This document shows positions 15,001 through 21,000 of a DNA stretch of 64,000 bases, piece by piece (the stretch's first letter is position 1; the number at the start of each line of letters is the position of its first letter). A program made the position numbers. Origin of the DNA: Giardia intestinalis (Eukaryota); NCBI GenBank assembly GCA_000002435.2, contig CM018793.1. The stretch is one strand, 5' to 3'.

Positions 15001-18000
15001 AATCAATGATTCTAAATATCTTATTCTGAAGCGCAATTAATAAAGGATCAAACTTAGAGCAAGAAAGAAGGCGGTCATGAGCATCCTGAAAGTGTGGCAC
15101 AGAGCAAGGAGGTAGACAGAAAAGCTCAACCCCATAAAGGGTTTTATGGGAAGGATCTACAAATAAGCGTGCGCCCTCTGCATGCTTTAGAGACAGTCTA
15201 GAATAGAAGCGCAAATGATCAAACCTATGGCGTGTATCAAGTCTGTTTGTTTCTAGAGCGTTCTCAACGATGCTTTTAGCAATAACGAACTTATACAATG
15301 AAGAAAGACCATGCAACTCGGCATCTTCTAGATCGTATTTCACTACCATTTCAGAATTTTCCTCGGACGTCTCAGAGGGCGCAAAAGTGAGTAAGCTTTT
15401 TGATATATAAACGCTTGGAACCATTATGTCCAATAGGTAACTGTTAGTGAGCGAGAACTGATCCTCCTGAAGATGTGCTAGTCCTGTTATTGAAGACTTT
15501 AATTCGTCAATGAATAGATGCTCGACACTATCAAGATCTAGCCCCTGGACAAACCCCTTACGCGATGAATACATTACTGTAAACCTTTCCCATTCCCTTT
15601 TAACTAGTACCTTAATCAAAGTAATAAGATGCTCATTTGGGCATACTCCATGCTTTAATACGGGATTCTGCTTAAAGAGGTGGTCGTTAGAGGTTGCAGG
15701 AAGGAGGTATCTGTTACGCCATGGAGTCGTAACTAACTTGTTAGAAGAGTCTGTGTCAAGACTGGAAGCATAAATATCGAGCTCAGGACTAGCCATAACT
15801 GCTTTAATCTCCTTATAGAATATGTTTCCAAGGATACTATTCAGGCTAGCATAACTATTCACGCGAACTAGGGCGAGTGGGGCAACCACTACTTCTCTCT
15901 TCATAAGCAGAACAGCTCGTCTGTATAGAAAATCAACATGGTATATCTGACACCACCTGTAATAGCCAGGCCGCACTAGTATATACCCAGGGCACCCTAA
16001 CTGCATTGGCACACAGTGAAACTGCAAACCATTAAAATTAATCCCTGTGGATATTTTGCTGCAGAAATCTTTTGCACATTGTGTGGTTAGGACTTCTATC
16101 AAATGGACTATTTCATTATGGCAAGAAGAAATTGGAAGTATTGTTGTTACTGCTTTAACTCGGTCTCCATTCTTGGCCTGAATTATGCTGCCTCCCATTG
16201 CTGTGTCGCGCTCGGTCTTCTGCAGCGAGCCTCCAAGAATCTGGGGAACCCGTAATGGTGTAGTGGATCTCTTCAACGACATTCCTTCGTGAAGACAATA
16301 AATATTTATCCTGTTTCTGGTTATCAAAGATAATTTCATCAGTTGTACGGTGATTCACTCCACCCACCGGTTGCTTCCAGCGCTGTGCTGCCGGGCCGCC
16401 TGCAGGCACGATTCAAAAATCTCACGAGTAAATTCTCGTTCAAGCTCTGGCCAGTTCAGAGACGACTGTTGGTCATTGATAACATAATGAGAGAGTCCTC
16501 TCTAGTGATATATCCAGAGCCTGGCACATTCCTCTGCCATTTCATGAGCGTGTGCTCAATCCGGGTGTGCGCGTCGGTCTGCCCAGGATTCAGGCCTTCT
16601 CGCAGACCCTCTGCTCTACCGGTGGTGCCTCTCCTTGGCCTGCCGTCTGGTGGGTGAAGCTCGGGTTGCTGTCTTTTTTAGATGCTCCCATCTGTCAAGG
16701 GCTGCCACCGGGCTCTCCGCTGGCTGGGCCCTCGGTGCCCGTCCGGCTGTGGCTCGAGTCAGGGCTCCCACAGTCGCGGTCACCTGGGTCTCAGTGGGCC
16801 GGCTGGTGGGACCGGGTGGGGGGTGTTGTATGTGCCCTTGGTGTCAGTGGGTCAGTGGGGTGGTGGGTGATCTCCGCTCTGTTTGCCAAGGTGGTTGTGT
16901 CTGATCCCCAGCCTTCGTTGCACTCCAAGACACAGGCACCGACGATCGTGTCGTGTCCCCTGACTGAGCGCCTCCCTTGGCCCCTTGTCTCAGGCAGTAC
17001 TGCCTCTCTGACTGGCTGGTGCGTGAGTGTCGAGGCAGGCCATCGCAGCCCCTCCTGTTGCTCTGTGCGGGTCTGCTGGGCCCCTGGCATGCCCTGTCCA
17101 GTGCCTCGACGGTAGTTCACCTCGGCCAGCAGGGGTGTGGATGGCCTGTGGATGGGATGGGTTCTCTCGTGCCTCTAGTGTGATGGCCCAGAAGACTGGC
17201 ACAGTGGGGCACTGGTGACTGCACTGTCCCTGTGGTCAGCTGTGCTGCTCCTGGTGGGTCCTCGTTGTGGAGCGCTGTGTGTCGTCCGTAGGCAGAGGTG
17301 AGCCTCCTTGGTCTCAGGATGCTCTACCATGCAGAGAGGAGCACGCTGATGGTTACCCATACCTCACCTGCTGTGCCCGTTCGGGAGTTCCCGATGTGGT
17401 CTACTAGGATCTTGACCCCTCCTCGTGGCTCTGATGACCCCTCGGGGAGAGCCGGGGCATCCTATGCCGAGGGGCGTGCACCCTCCTGCATGAGCTGGGA
17501 CCCACTGCACTGCCTCCAAGGAGGTCTGCTATGAGAGGCAGTGAATGATTGACAGCCCCAGAGTGCGGTGGAGGGTGATCGTGGTCATCTCTGTGACCGG
17601 GCATCACTCTGATGGTCGGCTCTGTGCCTGTGTGGTGCTCATGGGCCACCTGTCTGCCTCATCGCCTGCTGGACAGCCGGCCTCTTGTGGCGTCCGAAGG
17701 CCTCCTCGCTCCTCTGGCTGCTGCCCCCTCAGGTCATCGTGAATGCAGTCGAGGCCAGCGAGTCTGGTGCCTGCCTGGGTGTCATGGGGGGCTGGCAGCT
17801 GTCAGGGCTCTGCCACTGCTCACCTGCCTGGAGTGTGCCTCCCTTGGGTCTGCTGTGCTGCGTGAGTCCTCTGGCTTCCTACCAGGCCCTGACTGTGAGG
17901 GTGACTCCACCTGGCCCTCTGATGCCCCTGTGGATGAGCATAGCAATGTGTCTGGCTAGGGATCTCTGGTGCCCGTGTCTGTCACTGCCTCTCGGGTGGC

Positions 18001-21000
18001 TGTCTGGGGCTCTCGCATGAGGTCTACAGTCAGCGTGTCCCGAGCAGACTCCAGTCCTCTCTGGGTCCACACAGTCTGTCCGTGTGTGGACGGTCCTCCT
18101 GCACTCATGTCCATCTGTGCACACTGTCACTCAGTCTCGAGAGCAGACCAGTGCAGTCGCCAGGGCTGCTGTCAGAGGGAGTCGTCTGTCACTACATCGC
18201 TCGAGCAGCCCATGCAGATCAGGCTGGTTGCTGTGCACCCTCATGGCAGGGCTGTTTGACTTCCCTTGGCTATCCTCTCTGTCCCGGTGTGCACGGCTCC
18301 TGAGGGTTGTCTGGGTGGAGGCACTCACAGATCACGAGCACACAGAGGGATGAGTCACAGATGGGCAGCCCCCAGTCACCACAGCTACGATCACCTCACT
18401 CACCAAGAGGTCAGGGGCATATACAAGTACCCCCACCTCAGCCCCCACCAGCCCCACCAGCCTCACCGCCCCACCCACCAGCCGGCCCACTGAGACCCAG
18501 GTGACCGCGACTGTGGGAGCCCTGACTCGAGCCACAGCTGCCCGGACACCGAGGGCCCAGCCAGCGGAGAGCCCGGTGGCAGCCCCTGACAGACGGAGGC
18601 ATCTAAAAAAGACAGCGACCCGGGCCTCACCCACCACGAAGGAAGACCAAGGAGAGGCGCCACCGGTAGAGCAGAGGGTCTGCGAGAAGGCCTGAATCCT
18701 GGGCAGGCAGACGTGCACACACAGACTGAGCACACTTCCACAGAGCGACCGGGGAAGGTGCCAGGTTTTAGATATACTAATAAAGAGGACTCCCTAGTAT
18801 GTCGTCTACAACCAGCCATCGTCCTTGGACTGACCAGAACTTGAACGAGAATTTACTCGTGAGATCCTTGAATGCACCGCAGGCGGACCTATCAGCACAT
18901 CTACACAAGCTACGCACAGTAACGCGTTTACTACCTAAGTCTACGCCTTCCCTCTGCACACGAACCACCAGCAGAGGAACCCTATGAGGCCCCCCACGAC
19001 GACGACCACAGCGACGGAGATCCCCGCGATGGCCCCCGTGGAGAGCCCGCTCCTGTTGGCGCCAGAGGACACACACTTGCCATTGTCTAGACTGTATCCA
19101 TCAACACACTCCCCACATATATTGTCCATCACACAGCTCTTGCAGTCACTCACAGAGCACAGCACACACCCACTACCATCCTTGTTGGGCTTCTTACCAC
19201 TGTCACAGGAGGTGCACACAGCAGCAGCCATGCCAGCCCCAGTCAGAGCTGCTGGGGCTGTACACTGCGAACAGCCATCCACCCCCACATATGCCTTAGT
19301 ATCTACTAGTGTGCCTAGGGGGTTGCCACATGCCAATACAGACTGTTGAGCATTGGTTGCTTCTGGGACTACGAAGTACTTATTATTCTCACTAACAGCT
19401 GTACAGACCCCGTTGTTAGCTGTCTTGCACATATGACTACCGGGGGCCTTCGACACATCATAGCACCCTCCCATATAGAGGAAGTAGTTAGCAGCAGTAC
19501 ATGATGTACAGACACCATTGGCACATCCATTATTATTAGCCTTGTCACTAGCACAGAGACCATCAATTGGTACCTTACCACTATCTCCACAATAAGAACA
19601 ATAATGCTTTGTGGTGCCCTTATCATCTATTACGATGGCATCGCAGGCTCCAGATGTCCCCCCGCAGGCAGTATCATCTTCACAAGTCTTGGTGCATGTG
19701 AGGTCGCCAGGTTCTCCGCTGGGCCTGTAGTTGGGCTTACATTCAGTGCACTTGAAAGTATTGCCATCATTCGAGCAGACACTGCATCCATCGATGCCAC
19801 CTTTGGTTGTATCACTACATAGGACACACTCCTTTGTTCCCTGGGCATCCTTAAGGAAGTACCCCGGCATGCATTCAGTGCAGTCCTGTATGTTTCCCGT
19901 TGAGCCACACTTTGCGCAGTTTCCTGCACAGGGCTTGCAAGTGCTACTCAAGTAGAATCCAGGGAAGCATGCTTTACACACCGGCTTCTGAGAGGCTTCC
20001 TTGCTACACGTCTCGCAGTCTGCTATGCCCTGGTCGTTGCCAGACCCACTGCTATCACCGCACAGTATACACTTGGTATCTCCGTCACTTCGAAAGTGCG
20101 TCCCGTCCTGTCCGACAGTTGCGCACCCAGCAGCATCAACGCACGTTGTCGTCCCGTCGGCAGCAGTTCTTATCAGCTTCCCGTTACAATTGGTGCACTG
20201 AGGCTTCCCCGTAGCATCACTATATTCACATGCAGTGCAATCAGTTATGTCGGGATCACATGCCTTACAAGTCCAGGTCTTCTTGTCTGCGTACTGGGTT
20301 GCCTCGCATTGACCAGCATCTACACATTGATTATTCTTCAGGTACTTCCCATCCTCACACGTTGTGCACTGGCCTGCACCGGTGCAGTCTATGCATCCAG
20401 TAACGCACTTCTTACATGCTCCGTTATCTTTATAGTACCCAGCCTTGCATGTATCACATGTGGCAGCCGTTGGGGTGTTTGGTGCCATACATGTAGCGCA
20501 GCCCTCGACTCCCTTTGTCGTGCCATCTCCCACCGTGTCCCAGCAGAGGATGCACTCGCTACCAGGTTTCTGAGGTGTAACTGGGTTCTTGAACAGGCCG
20601 TTATCTGCCTTACAAGCAGTGCATACTCCGTTACTGGCCTGTGTGCATATCTCACTCCACTATCACCCTATCACTGTACAGCATTCACTACCTAAGTCTA
20701 CGCCTTCCCTCTGCACACGAACCACCAGCAGAGGAAGCCGACAAGCCCTCCGACGACGACAATCACAGCAACAGAGATCCCCGCGATGGTGCCTGTGCTG
20801 AGGCCGCTCTTGTTCATGCTGTCTCCTCCAGTGTCTCCGCCGGTGCCATCGTCAGTCTCTTGTCGCGTTATGTAGCAGATGACAGATCCTTGACCATTAG
20901 TTGGAGGAGCACAGCTTACGCAATTAGGCACACCAACTATTCCATTATCGCTATCAGCTGCACATTTGAAACACTTACCAGTACCAGTTCTATAATATCC

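What the first reader, a model, noticed from the sequence alone, without database searches (positions are those of the whole stretch)
16690..18320. Extreme strand-compositional skew (about 10% A on the plus strand) in a GC-rich core, which yields stacks of overlapping pseudo-ORFs
All three stop codons contain A, and their complements contain T. An A-poor strand therefore has few stops on either strand, which explains the unusual pile of mutually overlapping 60-190-aa ORFs here (16552..17115, 16635..16904, 17612..17959, 17685..18020 and others). They encode P/G/S/W/C/L-rich low-complexity strings, not proteins. Skew this strong over 1.6 kb is not typical intergenic Giardia DNA. Possible explanations are biased mutation or repair in a constitutively single-stranded or transcribed region, a decayed tandem array, or a structured RNA locus. 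Similar ~60-bp units occur at about 18090-18250 ('tgtcact[ca][ac][gt]tc.ctcgagcag.cc').
Basis: seen in the sequence. Interest (0 to 1): 0.55.

Follow-up and report, generated by a model that had tools for sequence, protein, structure and literature searches.

The report
Non-coding spacer beside Giardia VSP genes
The A-poor, GC-rich stretch is real, but it is the non-coding middle of a ~2.6-kb inverted-repeat spacer that Giardia carries downstream of some surface-antigen (VSP) genes, and its stacked ORFs come from base composition, not from genes.

Summary
Interval 16690-18320 is 12.6% A and 63% GC on the plus strand, the most A-poor 1.6 kb of the window. The listed ORFs exist.

The interval is the centre of a ~2.6-kb module:
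- Two imperfect inverted arms of about 0.5 kb, at 16384-16880 and 18385-18899, 82-84% alike.
- A 1.5-kb unique core between them.
- The right arm starts 42 nt after the CRGKA stop of a VSP (pseudo)gene, 18941-20533 on the minus strand.

This matches the published tail-to-tail VSP pair spacer of isolate WB: arms of 318-559 nt and 2.4-3.2 kb between ORFs. Here the left VSP is missing.

Arm plus core is a multi-copy Giardia family. Two metagenome contigs carry it at 84-86% identity, with the same 12.8% A in the one measured (L006). In one of them it directly follows an intact VSP tail.

The core is non-coding. It has no period-3 signal, its indels shift the frame, and it has no protein or Rfam match. 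It shows no tandem periodicity and no excess RNA folding.

The ORF pile-up is what 63% GC predicts; the skew adds little. The skew itself is inherited across the family. Only the arms show an ongoing strand-asymmetric substitution (G>T far above C>A).

This is an ordinary structural element with an undescribed compositional quirk.

The parts
16384..16880 (+). Left arm of the inverted repeat, oriented as if a VSP ended just to its left. No VSP is there, so this is an 'orphan' arm.
   Evidence: blastn aligns 16384-16810 with 18899-18474 at 84% over 429 nt. The inner 163 nt are 93% complementary. The multiple alignment carries the homology on to about 16880 / 18385.
16881..18384 (+). Unique GC-rich core, A-poor on the plus strand. 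This is the bulk of the finding. It is non-coding.
   Evidence: Composition. Period-3 z = -0.9. Indels shift the frame. No Pfam, VSP or Rfam similarity. It is 88-93% identical to the cores of L006 and L011.
18385..18899 (-). Right arm of the inverted repeat. It starts 42 nt after the VSP stop codon and is T-poor on the plus strand.
   Evidence: for the repeat. Composition.
18941..20533 (-). VSP (pseudo)gene whose CRGKA stop abuts the right arm. It has no ATG-plus-signal-peptide start and is the second member of a head-to-tail array with the VSP at 20698-22497.
   Evidence: Pfam PF03302 at E = 3.6e-37. Translation.
16500..18316 (+). Continuous A-poor (T>A) compositional domain. It covers the inner two-thirds of the left arm and nearly all of the core.
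   Evidence: 100-nt composition. The cumulative T-A curve peaks at 18316.
16620..16845 (+). Best-conserved block of the arm family, about 225 nt. It contains the near-invariant stretch CTCTGCTCTACCGGTGG(C/T)GCCTCTCCTTGG.
   Evidence: Seven-copy alignment. RNAalifold gives a covariation term of only -0.63 kcal/mol. Block coordinates are approximate.
16674..16679 (+). T6 run, mirrored by an A6 run at 18605-18610. Homology with the third arm copy stops exactly here, so it is a breakpoint between the outer and inner arm.
16427..16432 (+). AGTAAA, a Giardia polyadenylation-type hexamer in the outer arm. Its mirror copy lies at 18857-18852 on the minus strand.
   Evidence: It is conserved in armL, armR, arm3 and L011.
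17540..17545 (+). AGTGAA hexamer inside a 36-nt block that is invariant in all three core copies. It lies in the only A-richer spot of the core.
   Evidence: A block of this length is within chance.
18123..18233 (+). Two-copy imperfect direct repeat of about 46 nt, with about 62 nt between starts.
18443..18475 (+). CCCCACCAG x3.8 micro-repeat at the inner end of the right arm. Its G-rich counterpart lies at 16801-16860. Its length varies between copies.
27031..27360 (-). Third copy of the outer arm only. It is 94.6% identical to the right arm, and its outermost 51 nt are 100% identical to the left arm's outer end.
25000..27030 (-). Second GC-rich block (about 61% GC) attached to the third arm with the same polarity, A-poorer when read from the arm inward. 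It is not homologous to core 1.
2..16354 (-). Context only: one open reading frame of more than 5,451 codons that runs off the left end of the window. Its likely ATG at 16282 lies about 100 nt from the outer end of the left arm.
   Evidence: No Pfam family.

Best explanation
Identification. The flagged interval is the non-coding centre of a degenerate 'tail-to-tail VSP pair' spacer module of Giardia duodenalis. The ancestral unit is a VSP gene followed by a GC-rich 3' flank of about 2 kb (arm plus core). Read away from the VSP stop, that flank is uniformly poor in A. An inverted duplication copied the VSP and the first ~0.5 kb of the flank to the far side. That produced two inverted arms around a 1.5-kb unique core.

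Why the skew has its shape. It runs through the left arm and the core, then flips sign close to the inner edge of the right arm. The A-poor run is one piece of DNA, and the right arm is its partial mirror copy.

This locus. The left VSP has been lost. The left arm now sits about 100 nt upstream of a giant gene on the opposite strand. The arms have drifted to 82-84% identity.

The ORFs. The overlapping ORFs follow mechanically from 63% GC, helped slightly by the skew.

Origin of the skew. It is inherited by descent. The paralogous copy measured over the full aligned stretch (L006) has the same A content, and the cores of L006 and L011 are similarly A-poor (13.6% and 13.8%). In the core it is no longer being produced: current substitutions there are strand-symmetric and biased from GC to AT. 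In the arms there is still a strand-asymmetric G>T excess on the VSP-sense strand. I infer, but have not shown, that this reflects read-through transcription from the VSP, with damage on the non-template strand escaping transcription-coupled repair.

Function. The core most likely has no sequence-specific role beyond separating the two arms of the palindrome.
For: Inverted repeat and geometry.
- The arms align at 84% over 429 nt.
- The right arm reaches 510-556 nt past the VSP stop.
- The projected ORF-to-ORF distance is about 2,594 bp.
- Published WB tail-to-tail pairs have flank identity of 318-559 nt and 2,393-3,222 bp between ORFs (PMC2996952). Xu et al. give 2,526-2,813 bp with no gene between (PMC7000408).
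- Spacers of different WB pairs are reported as highly conserved with one another (bioRxiv 10.1101/2022.03.07.483299).

Family membership.
- L006 runs VSP tail (CRGKA stop), then arm, then core, at 86% identity over 1,707 nt.
- L011 has arm plus core at 84% to the window and 85.7% to L006.
- L008 has a VSP followed by an arm.
- L009 and L010 carry orphan arms.
- A solitary VSP in L007 has no arm.

Non-coding status.

ORF count explained by composition.

Skew conserved: A is 12.6% in the window and 12.8% in L006; the cores are 13.6-14.0% A.

Substitution spectrum.
- Three-way alignment: G>T 24 against C>A 5, p = 0.001.
- Seven-copy arm alignment: 13 against 0, p = 0.0003.
- Core only: symmetric, with an unskewed implied equilibrium.

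A second module in the same window (arm3 plus core2) has the same polarity with an unrelated core.
Against: - Only one VSP is present, so this is not a complete tail-to-tail pair.
- I could not retrieve any WB tail-to-tail spacer DNA. Homology to the published pairs rests on matching geometry and on metagenome and Logan contigs.
- L006 and L011 end before any right arm, so no second full arm-core-arm module was seen.
- Across copies the 'unique' core (88-93% identical) is better conserved than the arms (65-78%). That is not what a functionless spacer predicts. It may mean constraint, or faster change or conversion in the arms.
- The core's strong CpG depletion (observed/expected 0.38 against about 0.75 elsewhere) is unexplained.
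- The transcription inference has no expression data behind it.
- The recent CpG transitions lean the wrong way for maintaining the skew: G>A exceeds C>T.
Confidence: 0.7

Rival explanations
1. Hairpin-RNA or dsRNA source. Transcription across arm, core and arm gives an RNA with a stem of about 0.45 kb. In intact pairs the stem would extend into the VSP ORFs. Giardia Dicer would cut this into small RNAs that feed VSP silencing.
For: A modelled transcript of 16384-18899 pairs 413-423 bases between its first and last 520 nt on either strand. No minus-strand polyadenylation hexamer occurs in 16397-18101 in any of the three copies. Small-RNA control of VSPs is established in the literature (papers listed).
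Against: There is no expression or small-RNA data. The plus strand carries two AGTRAA hexamers, at 16427 and 17540, that could end transcripts before they reach the second arm. The arms here are only 82-84% complementary. No paper found links tail-to-tail spacers to small RNAs.
Confidence: 0.1
2. Relic of a mobile element. One version is a dead non-LTR retroposon inserted antisense to the VSP, with its T-poor sense strand on the minus strand ending in a short A-run at the junction with the outer arm. The other is a foldback or MITE-like element with ~0.5-kb terminal inverted repeats.
For: Homology of the third arm stops exactly at the T6/A6 run. Two unrelated GC-rich cores (core1 and core2) adjoin the outer arm at that same point. 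Both are T-poor on the strand that ends in the A-run. Core2 also has AGTAAA about 20 nt before its A-run. The family is multi-copy. The literature reports transposable-element relics around duplicated VSPs.
Against: No reverse transcriptase, endonuclease or transposase similarity appears in any frame. There is no period-3 remnant. No target-site duplication was looked for or noticed. In complete pairs the 'terminal repeat' would include whole VSP genes, which is not transposon-like. Xu et al. list reverse-transcriptase remnants only for pairs that point away from each other, not for convergent pairs.
Confidence: 0.12
3. The skew marks a site of strand-asymmetric replication or persistent single-strandedness, such as an origin, a terminus or an R-loop zone, rather than inheritance from an ancestral sequence.
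For: The AT-skew sign changes sharply at about 18316. G>T changes are asymmetric.
Against: The sign change coincides with the edge of the inverted copy, which explains it without any such process. GC skew is near zero in the core. Within the core the current substitution spectrum is symmetric. Copies of the family at other loci have the same composition.
Confidence: 0.04
4. A structured non-coding RNA gene lies in the core.
For: The core is 88-93% conserved between copies, more than the arms. It contains a 36-43-nt invariant block.
Against: Rfam gives 0 hits at gathering thresholds and at E <= 1. MFE z-scores average about -0.3 on both strands. Invariant runs are within shuffle expectation, with the 95th percentile at 40 nt. 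No covariation is seen in the conserved arm block.
Confidence: 0.03
5. One of the overlapping ORFs encodes a real, lineage-specific, low-complexity protein.
For: ORFs of up to 187 aa exist. Related ORFs were called by gene finders in other assemblies: P0001, P0123 and P0125-P0129.
Against: Indels between copies shift the frame, and substitutions show no codon-position pattern. There is no period-3 signal. The ORF count equals the random expectation for this composition. There are no Pfam hits.
Confidence: 0.01

Closest known systems
Tail-to-tail ('-> <-') inverted VSP gene pairs of Giardia WB, such as vsp1267 / GL50803_112208 (Adam et al. 2010, PMC2996952; Xu et al. 2020, PMC7000408)
   Same: Inverted 3' flanks of about 0.5 kb start right after the CRGKA stop. 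They diverge abruptly into a unique centre. The total spacer is about 2.6 kb with no gene inside. The spacer sequence is shared between different loci.
   Different: Only one VSP is present, and it is itself a pseudo-VSP without a signal peptide. The arms are 82-84% identical rather than nearly identical. The left arm abuts the 5' end of an unrelated giant gene. The source is not isolate WB: the best VSP match is 65%. The strand skew, the CpG depletion and the better-conserved core are not mentioned in the three papers I read.
Large genomic palindromes with unique spacers kept alike by arm-to-arm gene conversion, such as the human Y-chromosome palindromes (from my own knowledge)
   Same: Inverted arms carry genes around a non-duplicated spacer. 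The arms of intact Giardia pairs are reported identical, which implies homogenisation. The arms here are mosaic: the outermost 51 nt of the left arm match arm3 at 100%, while arm3 otherwise matches the right arm at 93-95%.
   Different: The scale is kilobases, not hundreds of kilobases. Conversion was not demonstrated here. This copy has decayed.
Transcription-associated mutational strand asymmetry, an excess of G+T on the non-template strand (described in mammals; from my own knowledge)
   Same: The plus strand has G+T at 57.5%. The arms show G>T far above C>A on the strand that continues the VSP sense strand.
   Different: No transcription data exist for this region. The core shows no current asymmetry. 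GC skew is close to zero. The magnitude of the AT skew (-0.32) is much larger than typical transcriptional skews.
Girep tandem-repeat RNAs of Giardia (Chen et al. 2009, PMC2817412)
   Same: Both are Giardia-specific, non-coding and VSP-associated repeated sequences.
   Different: Gireps are tandem arrays of 7-10 units of about 222 nt that resemble the internal repeats of VSP coding sequence. This element is not tandem and has no VSP similarity.

Membership tests
Giardia VSP tail-to-tail inverted-pair module | Two VSP ORFs in convergent orientation | tested here: not met
   Only the right-hand VSP (18941-20533, minus strand) exists. To the left of the left arm lies the start of a giant ORF of more than 5,451 codons on the minus strand. 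tblastn with 120 VSPs finds no VSP remnant next to the arm.
Giardia VSP tail-to-tail inverted-pair module | 3' flanks form an inverted repeat for about 320-560 nt beyond the stop codon, then diverge abruptly | tested here: met
   The arms are 16384-16880 and 18385-18899. The right arm ends 510-556 nt past the stop. Identity is 82-84% here against 'nearly identical' in WB.
Giardia VSP tail-to-tail inverted-pair module | About 2.4-3.2 kb between the two stops, with no gene in between | tested here: met
   The projected distance is about 2,594 bp, taking the VSP stop of L006 as the left anchor. The region is non-coding.
Giardia VSP tail-to-tail inverted-pair module | Spacer sequence homologous to the spacers of recognised pairs | tested here: inconclusive
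   It is homologous to arm-plus-core copies that follow an intact VSP tail (L006) and to further copies (L008, L009, L011). No WB pair sequence could be retrieved for comparison.
Non-LTR retrotransposon relic (GilD / Genie 2 type) | Remnants of reverse-transcriptase or endonuclease coding sequence | tested here: not met
   Pfam finds nothing in 15 translated ORFs or open stretches from the arms and core, on both strands, plus the longest ORF of core2. There is no period-3 signal.
Non-LTR retrotransposon relic (GilD / Genie 2 type) | 3' poly(A) or A-rich tail at the insertion junction | tested here: inconclusive
   An A6 run lies at the junction between inner and outer arm. GAAAAAGAAA, preceded by AGTAAA, lies at the junction between core2 and arm3. 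These are short and could be chance.
Foldback or MITE-like DNA transposon | Terminal inverted repeats flanked by target-site duplications | not tested
   Inverted repeats are present. Target-site duplications were not searched for, and in complete pairs the repeats continue into whole VSP genes.
Known structured RNA families (Rfam 15) | Covariance-model match | tested here: not met
   There are 0 matches at gathering thresholds over the whole window and 0 at E <= 1 over 16300-18950.
Protein-coding gene | Codon periodicity, frame-preserving indels, homologous proteins | tested here: not met
   Period-3 z = -0.9. Only 1 of 25 and 8 of 63 indels are multiples of 3. The only database 'homologues' are ORFs called on other copies of the same repeat.
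Tandem-repeat array (decayed) | Residual periodicity | tested here: not met
   TRF at minimum score 30 finds only 8-9-bp micro-repeats. The autocorrelation maximum is z = 2.9 against about 3.2 in shuffles.

The most novel reading that the evidence does not exclude
The arm-core-arm module is a functional part of VSP regulation rather than duplication debris. It would be transcribed from the VSP through a conserved core that is poor in CpG and in A. The transcript would then fold back through the ~0.5-kb arms, and through the VSP ORFs in intact pairs. That gives a built-in hairpin trigger for the Dicer/Argonaute pathway that silences all but one VSP. The core being better conserved than the arms (88-93% against 65-78%) would then reflect constraint on this RNA.
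Probability: 0.1. Interest if true: 0.75.

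Novelty: new member of a known kind. Interest (0 to 1): 0.3.

Why it matters
[quoted passage not shown] This locus makes several points about them.
- The ~2.6-kb spacer is a repeat family in its own right.
- The spacer can outlive its VSP partner.
- It has a fixed compositional polarity relative to the VSP.
- Its centre is better conserved than its arms.
- Its arms carry a strand-asymmetric substitution signature.

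If these properties hold for all pairs, they give concrete handles for two open questions. One is how the pairs arise and stay identical. The other is whether convergent read-through transcription occurs there. The relevant measurements are the direction of transcription, the duplication breakpoint and possible hairpin RNA.

For annotation there is a practical lesson. ORFs of 60-190 aa in these GC-rich VSP flanks should not be called as genes.

Tried and rejected
Retrieving the same locus from other assemblies.
- Exact-protein look-ups of both VSPs (three start choices), of VSP 28455-30629, of the 370-aa ORF and of a core ORF all returned nothing.
- A housekeeping gene was found, but only on Logan contigs that end at the VSP cluster.
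- Two VSP homologues were looked up in the hope of finding a paired locus. One was a solitary VSP with no arm (L007). The likely WB paired gene was not on record.

Searches that gave nothing useful.
- Scans of JGI metagenomes and prokaryotic genomes for the conserved arm 28-mer and for the VSP tail plus poly(A) motif gave 0 hits.
- In the representative search, four hits (P0122, P0124, P0126, P0130) were rejected as spurious repeat proteins after reading their sequences.

Hypotheses about the core that were tested and dropped.
- A decayed VSP pseudogene: tblastn with 120 VSPs gave only noise.
- An rRNA or other known RNA relic: no Rfam hit.
- A tandem array.
- Local RNA structure.
- Canonical G-quadruplex motifs at the inner ends of the arms: none with loops of 7 nt or less.
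- Girep RNAs as the identity of the element: a different kind of repeat.
- Literature search for the conserved arm sequence: no Giardia paper contains it.

A correction to my own reading. I first took 1-16000 to be ORF-free DNA. That was an artefact, because the ORF listing omits ORFs that run off the window. The stretch is one giant ORF.

Full report
**Organism and setting.** The window is Giardia duodenalis.
- Three ORFs match the Pfam VSP family PF03302: 18941-20533 (minus strand), 20698-22497 (minus) and 28455-30629 (plus).
- A housekeeping protein from the window is identical to genes on Logan assemblies of Giardia sequencing runs. One of these runs, SRR3177751, is typed as an unusual assemblage A genotype (PMC9618722).
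- The best VSP match in the protein collection is only 65% identical. So the source is not isolate WB.

**The observation.**
- On the plus strand, 16690-18320 is A 12.6%, C 30.0%, G 32.9%, T 24.6%. Several 100-nt windows fall to 7-10% A.
- This is the lowest-A 1.6 kb of the window, with a minimum of 11.9% against a mean of 25.8% (sd 3.5%).
- The strongly A-poor run starts near 16500. The cumulative T-A curve peaks at 18316.
- The next ~400 nt are the mirror image, at about 8% T.

**What brackets the interval.**
- A long imperfect inverted repeat surrounds it. 16384-16810 aligns to 18899-18474 at 84% over 429 nt, and the inner 163 nt are 93% complementary.
- Multiple alignment carries the homology on to about 16880 and 18385. 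That leaves a unique core of about 1.5 kb.
- The right arm begins 42 nt after the CRGKA stop of the VSP at 18941-20533.
- A third copy of the outer ~330 nt of the arm lies at 27031-27360. It adjoins another GC-rich block, 25000-27030. That block has the same polarity but a core unrelated in sequence.

**Match to published architecture.**
- In isolate WB, identical VSP genes occur as tail-to-tail inverted pairs. Their 3' flanks stay identical for 318-559 nt past the stop and then diverge abruptly. The ORFs lie 2,393-3,222 bp apart (PMC2996952).
- The chromosome-scale assembly lists 12 such pairs, 2,526-2,813 bp apart, with no gene between (PMC7000408).
- Spacers of different pairs are reported to be highly conserved with one another (bioRxiv 10.1101/2022.03.07.483299).
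- Here the right arm ends 510-556 nt past the stop. The projected ORF-to-ORF distance is about 2,594 bp, taking the VSP stop of L006 as the left anchor.
- The left VSP is absent. I first read the left 16 kb as ORF-free, but the ORF listing does not list ORFs that run off the window. A period-3 z-score of 125 showed that 2-16354 on the minus strand is a single frame of more than 5,451 codons. Its probable ATG at 16282 lies about 100 nt from the outer end of the left arm. It has no Pfam family.

**Related copies elsewhere.**
- L006 (ENA metagenome contig) runs VSP tail with CRGKA stop, then arm, then core. It is 86% identical to 16447-18101.
- L011, from the same sample, has arm plus core at 84% to the window and 85.7% to L006. 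Its arm is not preceded by a VSP tail.
- L008 has a full VSP followed by an arm at the contig end.
- L009 and L010 (Logan) have orphan arms at about 74-78%.
- A solitary VSP inside a housekeeping region (L007) has no arm.
- Arm plus core is therefore a multi-copy, VSP-associated repeat family. It is not an assembly artefact.

**Coding potential.**
- The core has no period-3 signal (z = -0.9, against +29 for each neighbouring VSP).
- Against L006, 1 of 25 indels is a multiple of 3, and mismatches show no codon-position pattern.
- In the three-way alignment, 8 of 63 gap runs are multiples of 3.
- Pfam finds nothing in the 15 arm and core translations tested, on both strands, or in the longest ORF of core2.
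- tblastn with 120 VSPs finds nothing in the core.
- The only database 'homologues' of the ORFs are ORFs that gene finders called on other copies of the arm.

**Why the ORFs pile up.** Open stretches of at least 60 codons were counted and compared with random sequences:

| Sequence | Open stretches |
|---|---|
| Observed, 16690-18320 | 21 |
| Markov-1 random, same composition | 17.6 +/- 2.4 |
| Same GC, no skew | 15.9 |
| Window-average composition | 7.6 |

Quantitatively, however, the skew lowers the product A x T by only about 10%. High GC does most of the work.

- Tandem array: TRF finds only 8-9-bp micro-repeats, and autocorrelation shows no periodicity. The '60-bp units' are a genuine two-copy repeat.
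- Structured RNA: Rfam gives nothing at gathering thresholds or at E <= 1. MFE z-scores average -0.3. The best-conserved arm block has a covariation term of only -0.63 kcal/mol.

**Origin of the skew.**
- *Inherited.* Over the aligned stretch, L006 has the same A content as the window (12.8% against 12.6%). The three cores are 13.6-14.0% A. So the skew predates their divergence of about 14%.
- *Substitution spectrum.* I treated the three copies as a star tree and took the majority base as ancestral. This gives 308 lineage-specific substitutions, with a net flow from GC to AT and an implied equilibrium GC of about 50%. One complementary pair is clearly asymmetric: G>T 24 against C>A 5, p = 0.001.
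- *Arms against core.* The asymmetry sits in the arms. In a seven-copy arm alignment, singleton changes give G>T 13 against C>A 0, p = 0.0003. The core alone is symmetric, with an unskewed implied equilibrium.
- *Reading.* In the core, both the GC-richness and the skew are relics that are now relaxing. In the arms, a strand-asymmetric process is still acting on the strand that continues the VSP sense strand. Read-through transcription from the VSP is the simplest cause, but this is inference only.
- *Shape.* The skew is continuous through the left arm and core and flips near the edge of the right arm. That follows directly if the ~2-kb A-poor flank is one ancestral unit and the right arm is its partial inverted copy.

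**Unexplained features.**
- The core's CpG observed/expected ratio is 0.38 (0.37 and 0.40 in L006 and L011), against about 0.75 elsewhere in the window.
- TpG and CpA are both about 1.6. A and T are almost never adjacent: AA 0.27, TT 0.30, TA 0.34, but AT 0.91.
- Recent substitutions show only a mild CpG effect: G>A is 2.6-fold higher at CpG (p = 6e-4), and C>T is not significantly higher.
- Across copies the core is 88-93% identical, while the arms are only 65-78%.
- Differences in the core are over-dispersed, but the longest invariant run (43 nt) is within shuffle expectation.
- An AGTGAA hexamer at 17540 lies in a 36-nt invariant block. No minus-strand polyadenylation hexamer occurs in any of the three copies.

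**Hairpin potential.** A modelled transcript of the whole module pairs about 420 bases between the two arms. I found no expression data, and none of the papers I found connect these spacers to small RNAs.

**Verdict.** The region is a degenerate member of a known Giardia structure, the VSP tail-to-tail spacer. Its compositional skew is not mentioned in the papers I read, and the mechanism behind that skew is only partly resolved.

Noticed in passing
window 2-16354 (minus strand): A single open reading frame of more than 5,451 codons runs off the left end of the window (period-3 z = 125). It has no Pfam family over its first 4,875 residues. The ORF listing does not show it because it leaves the window, so the region looks ORF-free.
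   Followed up: partly
window 25000-27360: A second GC-rich block (about 61% GC, with the lowest T content of any 1.6-kb stretch in the window) is joined to a third copy of the outer arm. Its core is unrelated to core 1. It has its own 93-nt inverted repeat (25352-25444 against 26910-27002, 75%). Its 370-aa ORF (25599-26711, minus strand) has no Pfam hit and is probably another composition-driven pseudo-ORF.
   Followed up: partly
window 16881-18385; L006 1561-2794; L011 1701-2914: CpG observed/expected is 0.37-0.40 in all three cores, against about 0.75 in the rest of the window. TpG and CpA are in excess (1.6 in the window's core, 1.3-1.6 in L006 and L011), and AA, TT and TA are nearly absent. 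This would be unusual for an organism not known to methylate CpG.
   Followed up: partly
window 16350-16400 and 27310-27360; protein P0101: The outermost 51 nt of the left arm are 100% identical to arm3, although arm3 otherwise matches the right arm best (93-95%). This mosaic suggests gene conversion. An NCBI-annotated 'VSP, partial' (P0101) ends in ...KCTACDESD followed by LLHPPVASSAVLLGP... That is a truncated VSP fused to this same orphan-type arm end.
   Followed up: partly
window 18941-20533 and 20698-22497 (minus strand): Two VSPs lie head to tail, 164 bp apart. The downstream one has no ATG-plus-signal-peptide start, so it is a pseudo-VSP by the criteria of Xu et al. The 143-nt direct repeat 18915-19057 / 20672-20814 (84%) is the conserved VSP 3' end.
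   Followed up: partly
window 22400-23600: A third GC-rich block (about 62% GC) without strong skew lies immediately upstream of the VSP at 20698-22497. This fits the reported GC-rich VSP upstream regions.
   Followed up: no
L006 end (window equivalent 18101) and L011 end (18065): Both metagenome contigs stop about 300 bp before the right arm would begin, next to the two-copy repeat at 18123-18233. There may be a length-variable repeat there that breaks short-read assemblies.
   Followed up: no
window 16801-16860 and 18431-18490: The inner ends of both arms carry G-rich and C-rich 8-9-bp micro-repeats (for example CCCCACCAG x3.8) whose length differs between copies. No canonical G-quadruplex motif with loops of 7 nt or less is present.
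   Followed up: partly
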